Origin: a virus
Lineage: Duplodnaviria; Caudoviricetes
Length of the DNA stretch: 64,000 nucleotides
Direction: 5' to 3' (one strand)
Virus record (IMG/VR): IMGVR_UViG_3300014204_000179
Coordinates: 5,325-69,324 of that record
Of the stretch, positions 2,188 through 7,455 are shown piece by piece. Position 1 is the first letter of the stretch. Each line of letters opens with the position of its first letter. The notes below the pieces were generated by a model that was not told where the DNA came from, searched no databases, and worked only from the letters and a program-made list of their open reading frames with translations. The position numbers were made by a program, and so were the translations under genes.

Positions 2188-3294
2188 TTATAAAGTAAAC
2201 CTATTTTGTTTTTGTGCTTTACGTTTTAATTCATTTACATTACGATATGCTTCAGGATTAAAATTCTCCCTTTTTACTATTGAAACTAAGAAATTAAATT
2301 CATTTTGACAAATAACTTGACCAATATAATCATTATTCTCTGTCTTAAGAACATAACTTTTTGGTGCTCTACTTGTAGAAGAAGGATTACCTTCAACATC
2401 AATTGTTGCATCGAAAGTAAGATCAAGAACTTCCTGAATTTTTTCCTGAACATTTGCAGTCATCTTTTCTTTAGTTCTAATTAATGCTTTTTCAAGTAAA
2501 TCAACAATACTATCTTGATGATTTTTTTTAATTTCTTCATATGCCTGAGTAAATTCAGTGTTTGAAGTTTTCTGCTTCAATTCACTTATAATTGCAAGTG
2601 CACCATAACAGTCACGAATCATTAAATCCCAAACTTGTTCAGCATAAGTAAATGAAGGAAATTTATCAATTGCAACAATTTCACCATCAATTAATATAAC
2701 AACACCAATAAGGTTTTTGGGACGTTCAAAGTGAGCAATAAATTGTTCAAGTTTCTTATCATATTTTTCAAAATATACATTAAGATAACGACCAGTACCT
2801 GAATCGGTTTCACGACCTAATTTTTCAATAGCCGGATAAATTCTACCAAGATCAGATGGTTTTCCGATAGTATCAAATACCATTTCACGCATAGTTATCG
2901 GAAGCATACGAAATTCCTGAGTACCTCTAAATGTTCCACCCTGAGAACCTTGAACACAACCAGCATCATGGTAAGTAATGTTTGATTTACTTGCCATATA
3001 ACCTGCTTTGGTCATACCATGATTCTGAGCACTTTGTTTAGTAATTACCGCCATTTGTGTTGGTAAAATAATTTCCTTATCTTCTTTATTGGTAAAACTA
3101 ATCTGACCATATGTAGAATTACCAGCAACTAATGAAGTCAATGGATTAGCAAAACGTTCATCCATAGAATATTCTTTATCAGTCGTTAAACATACAACTT
3201 GCATATTTAATATGCTTTGTATTACTATGTTACCGTTTTTATCTTTAATTGGACGACAACCTTTTAATAGTTCAGTAAAATCTCTTGTATTCAT
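2188..3294 (-). CDS. ARPP-1 (DUF6569)-like protein
   Basis: Motifs AQNH...AGCVQGSQGG and GVVILIDGEIVAIDKFPS...VW..M.RDCYG resemble the ARPP-1/DUF6569 family (recognised from memory, needs HMM confirmation). Confidence 0.6.
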   Translation of the reverse strand: MNTRDFTELLKGCRPIKDKNGNIVIQSILNMQVVCLTTDKEYSMDERFANPLTSLVAGNSTYGQISFTNKEDKEIILPTQMAVITKQSAQNHGMTKAGYMASKSNITYHDAGCVQGSQGGTFRGTQEFRMLPITMREMVFDTIGKPSDLGRIYPAIEKLGRETDSGTGRYLNVYFEKYDKKLEQFIAHFERPKNLIGVVILIDGEIVAIDKFPSFTYAEQVWDLMIRDCYGALAIISELKQKTSNTEFTQAYEEIKKNHQDSIVDLLEKALIRTKEKMTANVQEKIQEVLDLTFDATIDVEGNPSSTSRAPKSYVLKTENNDYIGQVICQNEFNFLVSIVKRENFNPEAYRNVNELKRKAQKQNRFTL

Positions 3295-3710
3295 AATAAA
3301 TTAATTTTAATATTTATTTTTTCACATGCTAAATTATATACTTCAAACGCTAATTCTTCTGTTTCAAATCTACCTAAAAATTTTGTTTTATTACAAATTG
3401 TTATTCTTGATATCCAAGGTTTTTGAGAATTTTGTTTATCTTGCGATACACCAACATATTTACTACTACTTTTCATTCTTCTTCTCGCATGATGAGTATT
3501 CTCTCTTGAAGTACACCATTCCAAATTTAATAAAAAATTATTTTTTCTATTTCTATCCTTATGATTTACTTCATTTAAATTATTTAAATAAGGAATAAAA
3601 GCTTCAGCAACTAATCTATGTATAGTATGTGACTTATTTATATTATTTTTTGATAAAGTTACTAAAACATAACCTTCACTTATAAAAGTATTTTTCAATG
3701 AACCTTTCAA
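3291..3710 (-). CDS. HNH homing endonuclease with C-terminal AP2-like domain; NUMOD4 segment continues upstream in frame to about 3812
   Basis: IHRLVAEAF...EVNHKDRNRKNN...NLEWCTSREN (HNH) and SKYVGVS...W.SRI...K.KFLGRFETEE.A..VYN (AP2). The same frame upstream reads KNIVGYEGYYQISNFGRVRS (NUMOD4). Confidence 0.85.
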   Translation of the reverse strand: MKGSLKNTFISEGYVLVTLSKNNINKSHTIHRLVAEAFIPYLNNLNEVNHKDRNRKNNFLLNLEWCTSRENTHHARRRMKSSSKYVGVSQDKQNSQKPWISRITICNKTKFLGRFETEELAFEVYNLACEKINIKINLL

Positions 3711-3838: not shown

Positions 3839-5467
3839 TTAAACGTTAATACTAATTTTTTTTGACCTTTTAATTGGTATAGATTCAAGAACCAATACCT
3901 GATTTTCAAGCCACTTTTTGGTATCAATTTCAAGCAACCTTGCGTTAATCTGTGGTTGTAATGCTACTGGATTGTTAATTGCCATTGTAATAACCTTTGA
4001 ACCCAATTTTCTCACATTACCACCCATTTCAGCACTGGTAATTGGTGAAATTTGAAACATTGGAATATTTCTACCACTTTCTGCTGTCCAAATACCTATA
4101 ACTTCATTTGTTAATCCATCATAAGCATTTTCATAACCATCAGTTAAAATGAAAATTGCATCATATGGTTTTAAAGGATTTTCCCTTTTTAATAAATCAA
4201 TAAATGAAGTAGCTAAATCAGTAACTTCACCTTCAGTTCCGATTATAACACCTGTTTTTGTAGACTTCAAAAGAACTTTTGCTGTAAATTCTGCAATAGC
4301 TTTTGGGGTGTTTTTAGATTCTTGTTTATGACCAGTCATTGAATTACTATTATCAACAATAATACCAATATTTTGATAAAAGAATCCATCAATCTTCTTC
4401 TTTTCTGCAAGTTTATCAATTGCAGTTTTAATTTCATTAGTAAAACCATTTTCATAACCAGTTTTGTAAAGTGCTAAGAAATCAGTTGCCTTTTCCAAGT
4501 CAACATTTTTTTCAACACCTAACTTAGCTGTCGATTTTGTTTGACGTACCTGCTGGTTAATAGAAGTAACTTCAACATTTTTCCTAATTAAAGCTTTTGT
4601 TGTTTCTTTCTGAAGTTTTGTTGCCCACATTGAATGATATTGTGGATGTTTTACACTTGAAATTAAACCCAAAAGAACTTCTTCCGGTACAGTTTTAATT
4701 CCAGTAACATCTACTTTTGCTTTTTGATATTCACTCAAAAGAGGAAATTCTGTTACATCATAAGTGATATTATCATCCCTTTTGTAAATAAAAAGTAATA
4801 GTTTAAATGCTTTAATTGCATCACCATTAAAATACTTCAAAATTAATTCATTTGCAATATTTCCTTCCTTTTCATTACTAATTCCAGTAGGATATGTTAT
4901 CTGCTTACTTGCTATTGAAAGCAATACTGATGTCATTTTATTTCCATAAATATGTTTTAAAACCTGAGCAATCTTATTACGATATTTCATCGTATAAAAT
5001 TCAAGATTTGATTGACCCCAAATAAAACCAAGTGCAATCTTTCTTGATCTTTCATTATTTACTTTAGCACTTTTCAATCCCACAAATAAACGAAGAACAT
5101 ATGGAATACCATTTTCACCAAGATTATTTAATGCAGACAAAACTGCTTTATCACTTAATCCATTATCATACCAGTCAAGTGGATTAACAATATTACATGC
5201 TCCACCCCTTAAAGTACTTTTAAATTCATTAAGTAATACCTCTGAAATAAACAGACCTGTAGCACCTTTTTGATTTGCTACAATTAAAGGTAATTCTTTC
5301 GAAAGCATATACAAATTCCTAATTTGAGTTTGAATAGCTTTTGTTTGATCTTCTTTCTTATGGTAATAAGTAGCACTGCTCTTAGCACCACTTGCAACAG
5401 TTAAACCATCAATTAATGATTGTTTTACTATACTGAGCATTTTTTGTGTTAATACCAAATCTTTCAT
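3839..5467 (-). CDS. vWA-domain protein with ~360-aa helical N-terminal region (Ro60/TROVE-like architecture)
   Basis: C-terminal MIDAS motif IIVDNSNSM...TDLA...IFILTDGYEN. The 542-aa size and helical-N/vWA-C layout match Ro60/Rsr. The TROVE assignment is an inference. Confidence 0.65.
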   Translation of the reverse strand: MKDLVLTQKMLSIVKQSLIDGLTVASGAKSSATYYHKKEDQTKAIQTQIRNLYMLSKELPLIVANQKGATGLFISEVLLNEFKSTLRGGACNIVNPLDWYDNGLSDKAVLSALNNLGENGIPYVLRLFVGLKSAKVNNERSRKIALGFIWGQSNLEFYTMKYRNKIAQVLKHIYGNKMTSVLLSIASKQITYPTGISNEKEGNIANELILKYFNGDAIKAFKLLLFIYKRDDNITYDVTEFPLLSEYQKAKVDVTGIKTVPEEVLLGLISSVKHPQYHSMWATKLQKETTKALIRKNVEVTSINQQVRQTKSTAKLGVEKNVDLEKATDFLALYKTGYENGFTNEIKTAIDKLAEKKKIDGFFYQNIGIIVDNSNSMTGHKQESKNTPKAIAEFTAKVLLKSTKTGVIIGTEGEVTDLATSFIDLLKRENPLKPYDAIFILTDGYENAYDGLTNEVIGIWTAESGRNIPMFQISPITSAEMGGNVRKLGSKVITMAINNPVALQPQINARLLEIDTKKWLENQVLVLESIPIKRSKKISINV

Positions 5468-5538
5468 TATATAAAAATTTATTTAAATGGTTATTTAAAA
5501 TTTCACTTGGTAAATATATATAAAATTATCTAAATAAA

Positions 5539-5594
5539 AAATAAAATGGGCAGAGTAGGCATATTTCTATGCCTTGTCCCCACCCATTTTATTT
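5539..5594 (-). terminator. Long hairpin with GAAA tetraloop and U-rich tail between the RNA array and the vWA gene (terminator or processing site)
   Basis: Minus strand ATAAAATGGG-TGGGGACA-AGGCATA-GAAA-TATGCCT-ACTCTG-CCCATTTTAT, followed by TTTTTATTT. Confidence 0.6.
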
Positions 5595-5622
5595 AAGGAA
5601 TAACTTATCTTCTCAATAAAGA

Positions 5623-5693
5623 GAAGAAGTTCGACTGTATTGTTTAATAATTATTATATTTCAAATATTTACTGAAAACACAATCAGTTCTTC
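5623..5693 (-). ncRNA. Array unit A: conserved module closing an AT-rich loop (no tRNA part)
   Basis: 5' GAAGAACTGATTGTGTTTTCAGTA pairs with 3' ACAATACAGTCGAACTTCTTC (GAAGAA/TTCTTC and ATTGT/ACAAT). Confidence 0.7.
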
Positions 5694-5815
5694 CAAATAT
5701 TTTTGAAAAATATCACACTTCTGTGATTTAAAATCATTTTTAACCTACGAACTAAAAAGAACGTTTCAAATGTTAGGCGGTAATTTTTATATTCTGATAC
5801 CGACAGAAATAATGT

Positions 5816-5960
5816 TTGGGAACATTTTAAAAGTATTTTTTGTTATAAATGCAAGTTTAAGAGACTTGTGCCTTATCCAGCTTGGCTAATCGTTCAATTT
5901 TTGAAGAACAATATCGGATTCGAACCGATGAATTACTGTAAACACTTTTCGTTTTCCCAA
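5816..5960 (-). ncRNA. Array unit B: circularly permuted tRNA-Lys(CTT)-like RNA joined to the conserved module at the variable loop
   Basis: Order on minus strand: module 5' strand, T arm ATCGG-TTCGAAT-CCGAT, acceptor 3' ATTGTTC, 10-nt linker, acceptor 5' GAACGAT, TA, D arm GCC-AAGCTGGATAA-GGC, anticodon arm CAAGT-CTCTTAA-ACTTG, module 3' strand. Confidence 0.85.
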
Positions 5961-5964
5961 TTTG

Positions 5965-6098
5965 CGGGGAGAGTTGGAGTCGAACCAACATAAACTGTTT
6001 TCACACAATTATTTTACCTTTTTTACTGAAAACACCATTAGTTTTCCCATTTAAGGGAATATTGAGATAGTATTATTTTTCGATATTTCTATCTCCCC
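5965..6098 (-). ncRNA. Array unit C: tRNA-like RNA with the module inserted in place of the D-loop; degenerate 6-nt anticodon loop
   Basis: Acceptor GGGGAGA/TCTCCCC is perfect. T arm GTTGG-TTCGACT-CCAAC. Anticodon-like arm ATTGT-GTGAAA-ACAGT. Insert AATACTAT..TTCCC-ttaaat-GGGAA-AACTA-ATGGTGTT-TTCAGTA. Confidence 0.8.
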
Positions 6099-6128
6099 AT
6101 TTTAATATTTTAAAGAACTTTAAAAATT

Positions 6129-6205
6129 AGAAGAAGTTTGTTAGTTTTTGTTTTGTAATGATTCGATTTACCGTCAAATTTACTGAAAAAACTATCAGTT
6201 CTTCT
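6129..6205 (-). ncRNA. Array unit D: conserved module closing a short insert with a T-loop-like remnant
   Basis: AGAAGAACTGATAGTTTTTTCAGTA ... AAAAACTAACAAACTTCTTCT; core TAGTTTTT pairs 8/8 with AAAAACTA; the insert contains TCGAATC. Confidence 0.7.
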
Positions 6206-6212
6206 TTTTTAG

Positions 6213-6286
6213 TAGCGGGAGTGGGATTTGAACCCACGAACTTGTGGTTATGAGCCACACGAGATGACCATCTTCTCCATCCCGCA
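6213..6286 (-). tRNA. tRNA-Met (CAT), initiator-like 1:72 mismatch, CCA not encoded
   Basis: Full cloverleaf: TGCGGGA/TCCCGCT, D arm GAGA/TCTC, TGTGG-CTCATAA-CCACA, GTGGG-TTCAAAT-CCCAC. Confidence 0.9.
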
Positions 6287-6295
6287 ATATATTTT

Positions 6296-6423
6296 AAAAA
6301 GGATATTGTGTTTGTTGTGTTTGTTTAAGAATATGGGAATTGAACCCACGACATTCTGCTTACGAAGCGGATGCTCTACCAATTGAGCTAATTCATACTG
6401 AAACAACAATCAGTTTCCTTTTT
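6296..6423 (-). ncRNA. Array unit E: conserved module clamped around a complete tRNA-Thr(CGT)-like cloverleaf
   Basis: AAAAGGAAACTGATTGTTGTTTCAG precedes the tRNA and AAACACAACAAACACAATATCCTTTT follows it (AAAAGGA/TCCTTTT and TTGTTGT/ACAACAA). Confidence 0.8.
6325..6397 (-). tRNA. tRNA-Thr (CGT)-like cloverleaf embedded in unit E
   Basis: TATGAAT/ATTCTTA (one mismatch), GCTC-AATTGGTA-GAGC, TCCGC-TTCGTAA-GCAGA (one mismatch), GTGGG-TTCAATT-CCCAT; no CCA. Confidence 0.7.
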
Positions 6424-6425
6424 TG

Positions 6426-6560
6426 TGGGGAAGGTAGGAATCGAACCTACAATCAACTGTTCTAAAGACAATTTGCTGTACCTTTTACTGAAATCACAAT
6501 CAGTTCTCCAGCAGGAGTATGACGATTATAATCTTGTTTTTTATATTTGCATACTTCCCC
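6426..6560 (-). ncRNA. Array unit F: tRNA-like RNA with the module inserted in the D-loop; anticodon position reads TTA
   Basis: Acceptor GGGGAAG/CTTCCCC, D-stem TGC/GCA around a long insert ending GGTACAGCA, ATTGT-CTTTAGA-ACAGT, T arm GTAGG-TTCGATT-CCTAC. Confidence 0.8.
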
Positions 6561-6612
6561 ATTAATTTACTTCACAATAAGTGAAAGAACTTTTTTTATT
6601 ATAAAGACGATG

Positions 6613-6643
6613 CAAATGTATTTTAAAAAAATTTACTATGCAA
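6613..6643 (-). promoter_or_regulatory. Bacteroidota housekeeping-sigma promoter driving the RNA array
   Basis: Minus strand TTG (6643-6641), 20-nt spacer, TACATTTG(CA) (6620-6613); matches the TTG-N19..21-TAnnTTTG consensus. Confidence 0.75.
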
Positions 6644-6689
6644 GCTTTTTTTAATATATTTTAAAATATATTTTTGAACGTCTGAAAAA

Positions 6690-6697
6690 ATAAATAC
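6690..6697 (-). promoter_or_regulatory. GTATTTAT putative late-promoter motif upstream of the RNA array
   Basis: Same octamer as found upstream of many structural genes in this window. Confidence 0.45.
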
Positions 6698-6743
6698 TAT
6701 CAAGTTTTAAAAAAGACTGAATTTCAAAATTTTTTTTATTATT

Positions 6744-6796
6744 TAAGATGATTTTTTAAAATTCCTTTCAATACTGTGGGGAAAGTGTGGGTAATT
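6744..6796. repeat. Left arm of perfect 53-bp inverted repeat
   Basis: TAAGATGATTTTTTAAAATTCCTTTCAATACTGTGGGGAAAGTGTGGGTAATT is the exact reverse complement of 7098-7150. Confidence 0.95.
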
Positions 6797-7097
6797 ATTT
6801 TTAACCTTCAAAAATTTCAATCTTCTGAAAGTATTGATAAACCTCAAAAGTTGAAAAATCAATTCCTCTGAAAGTCAATACAGGTAACGTTTTAACACTT
6901 ATCATATTGAATATCAATAATTAGACCTTCATTTTTTTTTGTTTAAGCTAAAGTAAAATATAATATATTTTTTTATTATATAAAATTAATGATAGGGTAT
7001 TATTATTTTATTATTTATGCTAAGAGAAAAAAATTTTGATAGTCTAATTATTGATAATTAATGGATTAACTATAAAAACGTATTTCAGTAATTTGAA

Positions 7098-7150
7098 AAT
7101 TACCCACACTTTCCCCACAGTATTGAAAGGAATTTTAAAAAATCATCTTA
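7098..7150. repeat. Right arm of perfect 53-bp inverted repeat
   Basis: AATTACCCACACTTTCCCCACAGTATTGAAAGGAATTTTAAAAAATCATCTTA; 301-bp spacer to the left arm. Confidence 0.95.
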
Positions 7151-7167
7151 CTATTTTTTAAAAGTCT

Positions 7168-7455
7168 TTGAACTTAAATAAAACGACATTATATTTGTTA
7201 TTAATAATACAAACATTCATGAAAAAGAAAATATTGAGAAAATCTCGTGCTGTTAATATTCTTTTTACTGAAGAAGAATTTAAAATGATTGATGCAATTT
7301 CTAATATTTATGGTAACTCTTATTCTAAAATATTAAGAACATTAATAATTCCGAATTTACAAAAAGAATTTCAAAAATTATCTGATTTAGATTTATATAA
7401 TAAATATGAAGTTTGTAAGGCAATTAGTAAAGGTAATACTAATTTTTTAATATAA
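7168..7455 (+). CDS. Small ribbon-helix-helix-like DNA-binding protein (likely start ATG 7219)
   Basis: RKSRAVNILFTEEEFKMIDAISNIYGNSYSKILRTL fits the RHH/MobC/CopG pattern. Confidence 0.55.
   Translation: MNLNKTTLYLLLIIQTFMKKKILRKSRAVNILFTEEEFKMIDAISNIYGNSYSKILRTLIIPNLQKEFQKLSDLDLYNKYEVCKAISKGNTNFLI

What the first reader, a model, noticed from the sequence alone, without database searches (positions are those of the whole stretch)
5816..5960. Circularly permuted tRNA-Lys(CTT) with a complete anticodon arm
The 3' half of the tRNA (T arm, acceptor 3' strand ATTGTTC) precedes the 5' half (GAACGAT, D arm, anticodon arm CAAGT-CTCTTAA-ACTTG). The acceptor stem is sealed by a 10-nt loop and the break is at the variable loop, where the module attaches. 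YrlA RNAs are also permuted but replace the anticodon arm; here the anticodon arm is kept. Inference: this is a non-chargeable Lys anticodon display. tRNA-Lys is a known target of anti-phage nucleases such as PrrC and PARIS AriB, though PrrC prefers the UUU isoacceptor. An alternative is a precursor matured by circularisation and reopening, like permuted tRNAs in algae and archaea.
Basis: partly seen in the sequence, partly recalled or inferred. Interest (0 to 1): 0.85.

Follow-up and report, generated by a model that had tools for sequence, protein, structure and literature searches.

The report
Permuted tRNA mimic on Ro60-type handle
A jumbo phage encodes a small RNA shaped like a back-to-front tRNA mounted on a conserved stem, next to a very diverged Ro60 ring protein; it looks like a new variant of the known Y-RNA tRNA mimics, not a lysine tRNA, because its anticodon changes freely between related phages.

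Summary
On the minus strand (5960..5816) the order is T arm, acceptor 3' strand, 10-nt closing loop, acceptor 5' strand, D arm, complete anticodon arm. All of this is enclosed by a stem formed from the RNA's two ends.

- **Conservation:** one copy sits upstream of the same gene in all 59 related phage loci. 98.5% of base-pair cells are paired and 23 of 35 pairs show compensatory changes. The tertiary Levitt pair 15:48 covaries perfectly.
- **tRNA test:** ARAGORN calls a tRNA in 31 of 33 re-ordered homologues and in 0 of 960 shuffles.
- **Lys reading fails:** the anticodon is CTT in only 9 of 41 distinct members. It changes about as often as four-fold synonymous sites, and U33 is missing in 13 of 41.
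- **Neighbouring gene:** the 542-aa protein has the Ro60 fold (Z 18.6 over 407 residues) but no Pfam TROVE match. An ARPP-1 gene always follows it, and a model supports their binding (0.67 against a best control of 0.00).
- **Deep linkage:** the same RNA recurs upstream of homologues that are only 24% identical.

Best reading: a Y-RNA-like (YrlA-like) tRNA mimic of an undescribed Ro60-like/ARPP-1 particle. It differs from YrlA in keeping the anticodon arm and in carrying the handle at the variable-arm position. This scan has found the family before on other DNA.

The parts
5816..5960 (-).
   Evidence: Covariance model R1 scores 155 bits here and 119-162 bits once in each of 59 related loci. 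Structure supported.
5940..5958 (-). Handle, 5' strand: P1 GGGAA, internal loop AACG, P2 AAAAGUGUUU. It is followed by the conserved ACAGUAA (5939..5933).
   Evidence: P1 and P2 pair with 5818..5838. 6 of their 15 pairs show compensatory changes. In the distant L062 copy P1 is GUCGG/CCGAC while AAC and ACAG are kept.
5818..5838 (-). Handle, 3' strand: P2 AAAUACUUUU, internal loop AAAAUG, P1 UUCCC
5913..5929 (-). T arm AUCGG-UUCGAAU-CCGAT, preceded by C48 (5930)
   Evidence: GGTTCRANTCC is invariant and 3 of 5 stem pairs covary. Levitt pair: G15:C48 in 37 members, A15:U48 in 4, no exceptions.
5889..5912 (-). Acceptor stem closed by a loop: 3' strand AUUGUUC, loop UUCAAAAAUU, 5' strand GAACGAU
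   Evidence: 7 of 7 pairs carry compensatory changes. Relatives carry GCCA or ACCA at the start of the loop in 28 of 41; the window copy has UUCA.
5870..5888 (-). U8-A9 and D arm GCC-AAGCUGGAUAA-GGC (3-bp stem, class-II-like)
   Evidence: U8, A9, G10 and A14 are invariant; G15, G18 and G19 are invariant or nearly so. The D stem covaries GCC/GGC with GAC/GUC, 17:16.
5852..5868 (-). Anticodon-like arm CAAGU-CUCUUAA-ACUUG (CUU at 5861..5859)
   Evidence: 5 of 5 stem pairs covary. Loop positions 32-36 are not conserved; A37-A38 are conserved.
3839..5467 (-). 542-aa Ro60-fold protein: helical ring plus vWA domain with a MIDAS motif (DxSxS at residues 372-376)
   Evidence: AF2 model pLDDT 93.5. Foldseek top 12 hits are all Ro60/TROVE, TM 0.31-0.50. 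VIA Z 17-18.6, rmsd 4.1-4.6 A, 406-412 residues. No Pfam TROVE match.
2188..3294 (-). ARPP-1-domain protein, the constant partner gene
   Evidence: Pfam PF20208, E 3e-13. It follows the Ro60-like gene in 55 of 59 loci; the other 4 are truncated. It is fused to the Ro60-like protein in P0150. Complex model 0.67 against a best control of 0.00.
3291..3710 (-). HNH endonuclease gene inserted between the two partner genes
   Evidence: Pfam HNH_3. Present in the window and 7 of 59 loci only.
5545..5593 (-). Long hairpin followed by a U run, between the RNA array and the Ro60-like gene (terminator-like)
   Evidence: MFE -30.7 kcal/mol, z -5.8
5619..5696 (-). Handle-only unit (no tRNA body)
   Evidence: R1 31 bits; motif match
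5965..6098 (-). Colinear tRNA-like unit (GGGGAGA/UCUCCCC) with the handle as a closed hairpin in the D region
   Evidence: Read from the sequence; motif match; Rfam tRNA partial hit of 17.5 bits
6126..6207 (-). Handle-only unit after tRNA-Met
   Evidence: R1 41 bits
6296..6422 (-). tRNA-Thr(CGT) (6397..6325) enclosed by a handle formed from its leader and trailer
   Evidence: ARAGORN and Rfam tRNA, 62 bits. R1 25 bits over the whole unit.
6426..6560 (-). Colinear tRNA-like unit (GGGGAAG/CUUCCCC-A) with the handle hairpin in the D region; anticodon loop CUUUAGA
   Evidence: Read from the sequence; Rfam tRNA partial hit of 25 bits

Best explanation
The element is a non-coding Y-RNA-like RNA, closest to the YrlA class. 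Its two ends pair into a conserved handle: P1, an AAC-containing internal loop, P2, and an ACAG junction. Its middle folds into a complete L-shaped tRNA mimic in circularly permuted order.

- **Inferred:** the handle docks on the diverged Ro60-fold ring protein encoded about 350 nt downstream. That protein in turn holds an ARPP-1 enzyme-like partner on the MIDAS face of its vWA domain. The tRNA-shaped body is the displayed, effector-facing part, as proposed for YrlA.
- **Shown:** selection keeps the tRNA elbow, U8-A9, the Levitt pair, all helices, the loop length and A37-A38. It does not keep the anticodon triplet or the acceptor-stem sequence. So the RNA is read by its shape, not as tRNA-Lys.
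- **Inferred for relatives:** most relatives have a 7-bp acceptor stem followed by an encoded NCCA and a short leader. RNase P could nick them into a two-piece mimic with a free CCA end, as shown experimentally for M. smegmatis YrlA. The window copy (UUCA) has lost the CCA and probably stays closed.
- **Unknown:** what the particle does. My best guess is surveillance of, or interference with, tRNA-directed enzymes during infection.
For: **Structure**
- Six helices are supported: 98.5% of pair cells paired, 23 of 35 pairs compensatory, and slid controls at 37-55%.
- The Levitt pair 15:48 covaries without exception, 37 G:C and 4 A:U.

**Linkage to the protein**
- There is exactly one strong R1 hit (119-162 bits) in the window and in each of 59 loci, always on the gene's strand and upstream of it.
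- There is one per genome in five 299-365-kb relatives that are 91-100% complete.
- The same RNA architecture lies upstream of homologues that are only about 24% identical: L062, 71.8 bits, with P1 fully changed but still paired; and L061, 41.5 bits, at 57% GC.
- Weaker handle units lie upstream of bacterial homologues, with 15 of 15 hits on the gene's strand.

**Protein fold**
- The model has pLDDT 93.5.
- The 12 best Foldseek hits are all Ro60/TROVE, with TM 0.44-0.50 for the animal Ro60 chains and 0.31-0.37 for the bacterial, phage and apo human ones; the next family is near TM 0.2.
- VIA-align gives Z 17-18.6, rmsd 4.1-4.6 A over 406-412 residues spanning both domains.

**ARPP-1 partner**
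- It is adjacent in 55 of 59 loci and in L062, and fused in P0150.
- The complex model scores ipSAE 0.67 against a best control of 0.00. That mark was reached by 58 of 80 solved complexes and 2 of 110 mismatched pairs. The three runs agree in at least 80% of contacts and the partner's pLDDT is at least 83. The interface includes the MIDAS serines 374/376 and the invariant DGYEN segment.

**Not a generic tRNA-processing signal**
- 44 ordinary tRNAs in three arrays of complete relatives carry no handle motif.

**Published precedent**
- Y RNAs lie within 4 kb of Ro60 on the same strand, YrlA mimics tRNA, and M. smegmatis YrlA is cut by RNase P and receives CCA (PMC4201824).
- Phage Ro60 binds Y-like RNAs encoded upstream of its gene (PMC12135203).
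Against: - No experiment or RNA-seq shows that the RNA is made, or where its ends lie.
- Binding of the handle to the Ro60-like protein is inferred from linkage and analogy only.
- The protein has no sequence-level match to TROVE. Ro60 membership therefore rests on a predicted structure.
- The Rfam YrlA model does not hit this element at all.
- The YrlA motif GNCGAAN0-1G is absent as such. Its CGAA core is present in the window copy and in 14 of 33 orthologues.
- A hairpin with a U run lies between the array and the protein gene, so RNA and protein may be expressed separately.
Confidence: 0.7

Rival explanations
1. Bait or decoy for host enzymes that attack tRNAs (anticodon nucleases, tRNA-modifying toxins). 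The mimic displays the identity elements of a tRNA, and the Ro60-like/ARPP particle senses, absorbs or reverses the damage.
For: - The anticodon loop (positions 32-36: 4, 9, 12, 5, 7 changes) and the acceptor stem (mean 7.1, up to 14) change as fast as or faster than four-fold sites (mean 6.3, maximum 12), while remaining structurally intact.
- These are the parts of a tRNA that identity-reading enzymes contact.
- The handle-clamped tRNA at the neighbouring array position also changes anticodon between phages.
- ARPP is predicted in the literature to act on ribose or ADP-ribose moieties in conflict systems (PMC9503650).
Against: - The rates are compatible with plain absence of constraint. Four-fold sites in a 25% GC genome may understate the neutral rate.
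- No nuclease or defence gene is linked.
- The anticodon is not fixed on Lys or on any other known nuclease target.
- This rival is compatible with the best explanation rather than exclusive of it.
Confidence: 0.2
2. A true permuted (or split) tRNA gene. The transcript is processed, either by RNase P plus 3' trimming into a two-piece tRNA held together by the handle, or by circularisation and reopening. It is then charged and used in translation.
For: - The re-ordered sequence is a good cloverleaf.
- 28 of 41 members encode NCCA after a 7-bp acceptor stem.
- All tertiary-contact nucleotides are kept.
- The D arm and the G73 discriminator resemble class-II (Ser-type) tRNAs, whose synthetase ignores the anticodon. 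This comparison was made by eye only.
Against: - The anticodon differs between orthologues, with 15 different triplets.
- U33 is absent in 13 of 41.
- The window copy and 12 others lack CCA, and 8 of those have a tight 4-5-nt closing loop.
- Complete relatives already carry dozens of ordinary tRNAs.
- No bulge-helix-bulge motif and no splicing endonuclease is evident.
- The junction strands (10 and 13 nt) would not give a normal variable loop.
Confidence: 0.07
3. The handle is only a processing or stability stem (for example an RNase III site) for a small tRNA operon. The permuted unit is then a by-product of rearranged tandem tRNA genes, unrelated to the neighbouring protein.
For: - Long leader-trailer stems are common processing sites.
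- The array contains two ordinary tRNAs.
- A terminator-like hairpin separates it from the protein gene.
Against: - The RNA stays linked to the Ro60-like/ARPP pair down to 24% protein identity and across phages and bacteria.
- The large ordinary tRNA arrays of the same phages lack the handle.
- Single-stranded AAC and ACAG are invariant, as expected of a protein-binding site.
- The permuted fold itself is under strong purifying selection.
Confidence: 0.05

Closest known systems
YrlA (Y RNA-like A; Rfam RF02553), partner of bacterial and phage Rsr/Ro60 (Chen et al. 2014, PMC4201824; structure bioRxiv 10.1101/312249)
   Same: - Encoded just upstream of a Ro60-fold gene on the same strand.
- The 5' and 3' ends form a bulged stem.
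- The T arm precedes the D arm, with the acceptor stem as a closed hairpin between them.
- U8-A9, the D/T-loop contacts and the Levitt pair are kept.
- M. smegmatis YrlA, with a 7-bp acceptor stem, is cut by RNase P and receives CCA. Most members here encode that CCA.
   Different: - Here a full anticodon arm is retained, and the handle leaves from the variable-arm position instead of replacing the anticodon stem.
- The handle has its own signature (AAC ... ACAG) rather than GNCGAAN0-1G.
- The Rfam YrlA model does not match.
- The protein partner has no TROVE sequence match and is always coupled to ARPP-1.
D. radiodurans Yrn1
   Same: A Y RNA with a T arm and a stem-loop that can be drawn as an anticodon arm (PMC4201824).
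   Different: Yrn1 has a 6-nt loop, no clear D arm and no acceptor hairpin. Here all four tRNA arms are present, and the anticodon loop is exactly 7 nt in all 41 members.
Circularly permuted tRNA genes of Cyanidioschyzon merolae and some archaea (PMC3978253)
   Same: The 3' half is encoded before the 5' half, and the acceptor stem is initially closed by an intervening sequence.
   Different: Those genes mature through a bulge-helix-bulge cut, ligation to a circle and reopening, and they have conserved, used anticodons. Here there is no BHB, no linked endonuclease, a free-drifting anticodon and a conserved protein-type handle.
Thermus phage phiLo Ro60 with Yrl1/Yrl2 (PMC12135203)
   Same: A phage Ro60-fold protein with Y-like RNAs encoded directly upstream. 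That structure is among the fold matches (9l5y, Z 15.0).
   Different: The phiLo RNAs are simple stem-bulge-stem RNAs with a CGAA motif and no tRNA body. No ARPP partner is described.

Membership tests
YrlA / bacterial Y RNA | Encoded within about 4 kb of a Ro60 orthologue, on the same strand | tested here: met
   The element ends about 350 nt upstream of the Ro60-fold ORF 3839..5467 on the same strand. The same holds in all 59 loci.
YrlA / bacterial Y RNA | 5' and 3' ends pair into a bulged stem (the Ro60-binding module) | tested here: met
   P1 (5 bp), a 4/6-nt internal loop and P2 (10 bp); 97-99% of cells paired, and 6 pairs with compensatory changes.
YrlA / bacterial Y RNA | GNCGAAN0-1G motif near the 5' end | tested here: not met
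   The window copy has AACGAAAAG: the CGAA core is present but the leading G is not. CGAA is present in 14 of 33 orthologues; the others have CGTA, CTTA, CTGA or CTAA.
YrlA / bacterial Y RNA | tRNA-like domain in the order T arm, closed acceptor stem, D arm, with tRNA tertiary nucleotides | tested here: met
   (Levitt pair covariation)
YrlA / bacterial Y RNA | The anticodon stem is continuous with the Ro-binding stem, and there is no anticodon loop | tested here: not met
   A separate 5-bp/7-nt anticodon arm is present in all 41 members. The handle sits between the anticodon arm and the T arm.
YrlA / bacterial Y RNA | Scores at or above the Rfam RF02553 gathering threshold (69 bits) | tested here: not met
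   No YrlA match on 5816-5960 even at E <= 10. The only weak hit (23 bits) is at 6342-6479.
YrlA / bacterial Y RNA | Bound by the Ro60 orthologue | not testable with these tools
   Needs EMSA or immunoprecipitation.
Functional tRNA-Lys(CUU) | Colinear cloverleaf recognised by tRNA finders | tested here: not met
   ARAGORN finds nothing in native order. Rfam tRNA gives 20.6 bits, below the 29-bit threshold. It is recognised only after re-ordering.
Functional tRNA-Lys(CUU) | Anticodon and U33 conserved among orthologues | tested here: not met
   CTT in 9 of 41, with 15 different triplets; U33 in 28 of 41. The rate is close to that of four-fold sites.
Functional tRNA-Lys(CUU) | Free 3' NCCA end | tested here: not met
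   In the window copy the acceptor is closed by UUCAAAAAUU. 28 of 41 relatives do encode NCCA. Actual processing is not testable here.
Permuted pre-tRNA (C. merolae type) | 3' half upstream of 5' half | tested here: met
Permuted pre-tRNA (C. merolae type) | Bulge-helix-bulge at the leader-trailer junction, giving a canonical tRNA after ligation | tested here: not met
   The junction is a 5-bp plus 10-bp helix with an asymmetric 4/6-nt internal loop and 10- and 13-nt joining strands. There is no 3-4-3 BHB. This was judged by inspection only.
Ro60 / TROVE protein (for ORF 3839..5467) | HEAT-repeat ring plus C-terminal vWA domain with MIDAS | tested here: met
   Z 17-18.6, rmsd 4.1-4.6 A, 406-412 aligned residues spanning residues 15-511, against Ro60 chains. 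DxSxS and TDG motifs are invariant.
Ro60 / TROVE protein (for ORF 3839..5467) | Sequence match to Pfam TROVE (PF05731) or to solved Ro60 sequences | tested here: not met
   No Pfam family for the ORF or for 9 sampled homologues. No hit to PDB sequences with a single sequence or with profiles.

The most novel reading that the evidence does not exclude
The handle-mounted, complete tRNA mimic is a bait whose identity elements (anticodon loop and acceptor stem) are under diversifying selection in an arms race with host tRNA-targeting defence enzymes. The diverged Ro60 ring with its ARPP-1 partner would then form a phage (and bacterial) particle that detects, soaks up or chemically reverses tRNA damage. 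That would be a new functional branch of Ro60/Y-RNA biology. In members with an encoded CCA, the bait would be a nicked, possibly chargeable, two-piece tRNA.
Probability: 0.2. Interest if true: 0.85.

Novelty: new variant of a known kind. Interest (0 to 1): 0.66.

Why it matters
Y RNAs and Ro60 are conserved from bacteria to humans, yet what the tRNA-like half of bacterial Y RNAs is for remains unknown.

This family has a full cloverleaf: anticodon arm, usually an encoded CCA, and a handle at the variable-arm position. It therefore shows that the mimicry extends to the whole tRNA.

The family is tied to a Ro60-fold protein that sequence profiles did not link to TROVE, and to a constant enzyme-like partner, ARPP-1. 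Together these give a concrete three-part particle to purify.

It occurs in jumbo phages and in cultured bacteria (Planctomycetes, Myxococcota), so it can be tested experimentally.

The free drift of the anticodon and the acceptor sequence against a rigidly kept shape is a clear, testable clue to what reads the RNA.

Tried and rejected
- **RNA evidence:** no RNA holder is listed for this stretch. Only four DNA runs hold all or part of it, two of which may be its source.
- **Sequence-level links of the 542-aa protein to Ro60:** none from Pfam, PHROGs, or PDB phmmer and profile searches.
- **First structure model:** the first AF2 model, from 24 close sequences, was poor (pLDDT 68). It was replaced by one from 106 diverse sequences.
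- **blastn against 50,697 phage records:** matched only the ordinary tRNA-Met.
- **Base-pairing partner for the variable anticodon loop:** a search within 2.5 kb on either side gave no consistent position across phages.
- **Promoter and terminator scan:** promoter-like sites are not above shuffles (16 against 11.6). The only 'terminator' it found is the T arm itself.
- **Weak R1 hits elsewhere in complete relatives:** these are tandem ordinary tRNAs without the handle.
- **R1 on bacterial loci:** it gave only 25-30-bit hits. The model is too specific to the phage clade to delimit the bacterial RNAs.
- **Ser-type (class II) origin of the body:** this rests on comparing the D arm and G73 by eye. 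It was not tested.

Full report
**1. The observation**

The window is part of a 69-kb IMG/VR viral contig, estimated at 23% of a jumbo-phage genome, with about 25% GC.

The finding lies on the minus strand, in a 1.7-kb gene-free stretch (5468-7168) that also holds tRNA-Thr(CGT) and tRNA-Met(CAT).

Read 5' to 3' from 5960 to 5816, the sequence contains:
- a T arm (AUCGG-UUCGAAU-CCGAU);
- the acceptor 3' strand AUUGUUC;
- a 10-nt loop;
- the acceptor 5' strand GAACGAU;
- U8-A9;
- a D arm;
- a 5-bp/7-nt anticodon arm with CUU.

All of this is enclosed by two helices (P1 GGGAA/UUCCC and P2 AAAAGUGUUU/AAAUACUUUU) formed from the two ends. The single sequence folds into exactly this structure (z -3.1, 0 of 200 shuffles).

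**2. More than chance**

The neighbouring 542-aa protein retrieved 59 related viral loci. The element is present in all of them.

A covariance model built from 33 distinct copies (A2, R1) gives one hit of 119-162 bits per locus, always upstream of the gene on its strand. It gives one such hit per genome in five relatives of 299-365 kb that are 91-100% complete.

RNAalifold recovers all six helices. On the stated structure:
- 98.5% of pair cells are standard pairs, against 37-55% with slid partners;
- 23 of 35 pairs have compensatory changes;
- no shuffle out of 500 reaches any measure.

In 41 distinct members the tertiary Levitt pair is G15:C48 in 37 and A15:U48 in 4, with no exception. This points to a real L-shaped fold.

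ARAGORN calls a tRNA in 31 of 33 re-ordered sequences. It calls none in 960 shuffles and none in native order.

**3. Not tRNA-Lys**

The anticodon triplet is CTT in 9 of 41 members. The others carry GTT, ATT, ATG, TGA, GCT, CGT and eight more triplets. U33 is present in 28 of 41. Only the 7-nt loop length and A37-A38 are kept.

On the tree of the adjacent gene (29 phages):
- loop positions 32-36 change 4, 9, 12, 5 and 7 times;
- 61 four-fold synonymous sites change 6.3 times on average, with a maximum of 12;
- acceptor-stem columns change 7.1 times on average, up to 14, while staying paired.

So the two classical identity regions of a tRNA are unconstrained in sequence or diversifying, while the shape is strictly kept.

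**4. The acceptor end**

In 28 of 41 members the acceptor 3' strand is followed directly by GCCA or ACCA. In the long-loop class the leader pairs with CCAA. Eight members have a tight 4-5-nt loop. The window copy has UUCA.

M. smegmatis YrlA, which also has a 7-bp acceptor stem, is cleaved by RNase P and receives CCA in vivo (PMC4201824). The same is a reasonable inference for the CCA-encoding members here. It is untested.

**5. The neighbours**

ORF 3839..5467 has no Pfam, PHROG or PDB sequence match. It has a C-terminal vWA/MIDAS signature.

A profile search of 1.8 billion representatives found 359 homologues. With 106 of them, AlphaFold gives pLDDT 93.5 and pTM 0.91.

- Foldseek's 12 best PDB hits are all Ro60/TROVE (TM 0.44-0.50 for the animal Ro60 chains, 0.31-0.37 for the bacterial, phage and apo human ones), with a sharp drop afterwards.
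- VIA-align gives Z 17-18.6, rmsd 4.1-4.6 A and 406-412 aligned residues across both domains. vWA-only hits stop at Z 12.

The next gene is an ARPP-1 domain protein:
- It follows the Ro60-like gene in 55 of 59 loci; the other four are truncated. An HNH gene is inserted between them in the window and 7 loci.
- It follows a 24%-identical homologue in L062.
- It is fused to the Ro60-like protein in P0150.

A complex model supports binding but does not show it:
- ipSAE is 0.67 against a best control of 0.00.
- That mark was reached by 58 of 80 solved complexes and 2 of 110 mismatched pairs.
- The runs agree in at least 80% of contacts, and the partner's pLDDT is at least 83.
- The interface lies on the MIDAS face.

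**6. RNA-protein linkage over deep divergence**

R1 finds the same architecture upstream of the distant homologues:
- L062:125-261 scores 71.8 bits. P1 is now GUCGG/CCGAC, while AAC, P2 and ACAG are kept. A second permuted unit lies beside it.
- L061:918-1054 scores 41.5 bits at 57% GC.

The protein family is also present in bacterial genomes, including Pirellulaceae with cultured strains, Myxococcota and Bacteroidota. There, weaker handle units lie upstream on the same strand.

Within the window the handle recurs six times, only in this array. It appears:
- alone;
- as a hairpin in the D region of two colinear tRNA-like RNAs;
- around tRNA-Thr.

The array order is conserved among the phages. 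Ordinary tRNA arrays of complete relatives (44 tRNAs inspected) lack the handle. That argues against a generic processing signal and against any need for this RNA as a decoder.

**7. Interpretation**

The anatomy and context match the Ro60/Y-RNA paradigm:
- a bulged terminal stem;
- a tRNA-like effector domain in the order T arm, acceptor hairpin, D arm;
- a location just upstream of the Ro60-fold gene on the same strand (PMC4201824; bioRxiv 10.1101/312249; PMC12135203).

It is not a member of Rfam YrlA:
- the CM does not match;
- the GNCGAAN0-1G motif is absent as such;
- the anticodon arm is retained, with the handle at the variable-arm position.

I therefore file it as a new variant of a known kind.

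What is shown: the fold, its conservation, the linkage, and the protein fold (by prediction). What is inferred: handle-protein binding, RNase P nicking, and any biological role.

**8. Relation to earlier notes**

Before consulting earlier notes I had already reached the Y-RNA/Ro60 reading. They also show that follow-up agents reached the same conclusion for this RNA/Ro60-like/ARPP family on other phage genomes. This does not change the scores.

Noticed in passing
window 6296-6422 (-) and the same array position in L002-L060: The ordinary-looking tRNA enclosed by a handle is Thr(CGT) here. At the orthologous position in relatives it is Asp(GTC), Ser(TGA), 'SeC'(TCA), Leu(CAA), Glu(TTC), Ile(TAT) or Asn(GTT). 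Only tRNA-Met(CAT) is constant.
   Followed up: partly
window 6426-6560 (-) and 5965-6098 (-): There are two colinear tRNA-like RNAs with perfect G-rich acceptor stems. In each, the handle is a closed hairpin replacing most of the D arm. The first has the anticodon loop CUUUAGA (UUA, which would read the UAA stop codon) and the second GUGAAAA.
   Followed up: partly
window 6342-6479 (-): The only Rfam YrlA signal (23 bits) spans the T arm of one unit and the D arm of the next tRNA. This arrangement resembles the published 'dimeric tRNA' model for the origin of YrlA.
   Followed up: no
window 3291-3710 (-): An HNH endonuclease gene sits between the Ro60-like and ARPP-1 genes in the window and 7 of 59 loci only. 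It looks like a mobile insertion.
   Followed up: partly
L063 (JBAZIW010000001.1) versus L030: A 362,763-bp contig deposited as a 'Candidatus Paceibacterota' MAG has the same length as the IMG/VR phage contig of L030 and carries the same operon. This is either a mis-binned phage or a hint at the host.
   Followed up: no
L125, L126, L127 (complete relatives G002-G004): There are very large ordinary tRNA arrays (for example 24 tRNAs in 9 kb), several of them 84-96 nt long. ARAGORN reads one with a 4-nt anticodon (taag).
   Followed up: no
window about 6750-6800 and 7090-7140: A long inverted repeat (…CCACACTTTCCCCACAGTATTGAAAGG…) flanks an AT-rich spacer at the strand switch between the RNA array and the rightward DUF3987/primase-like genes.
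   Followed up: no
L061 (P0150, 884 aa): A natural fusion of the Ro60-like protein with ARPP-1/ARPP-2 domains, in a 57% GC organism. A permuted tRNA-like RNA and a tRNA-like element lie just upstream.
   Followed up: partly
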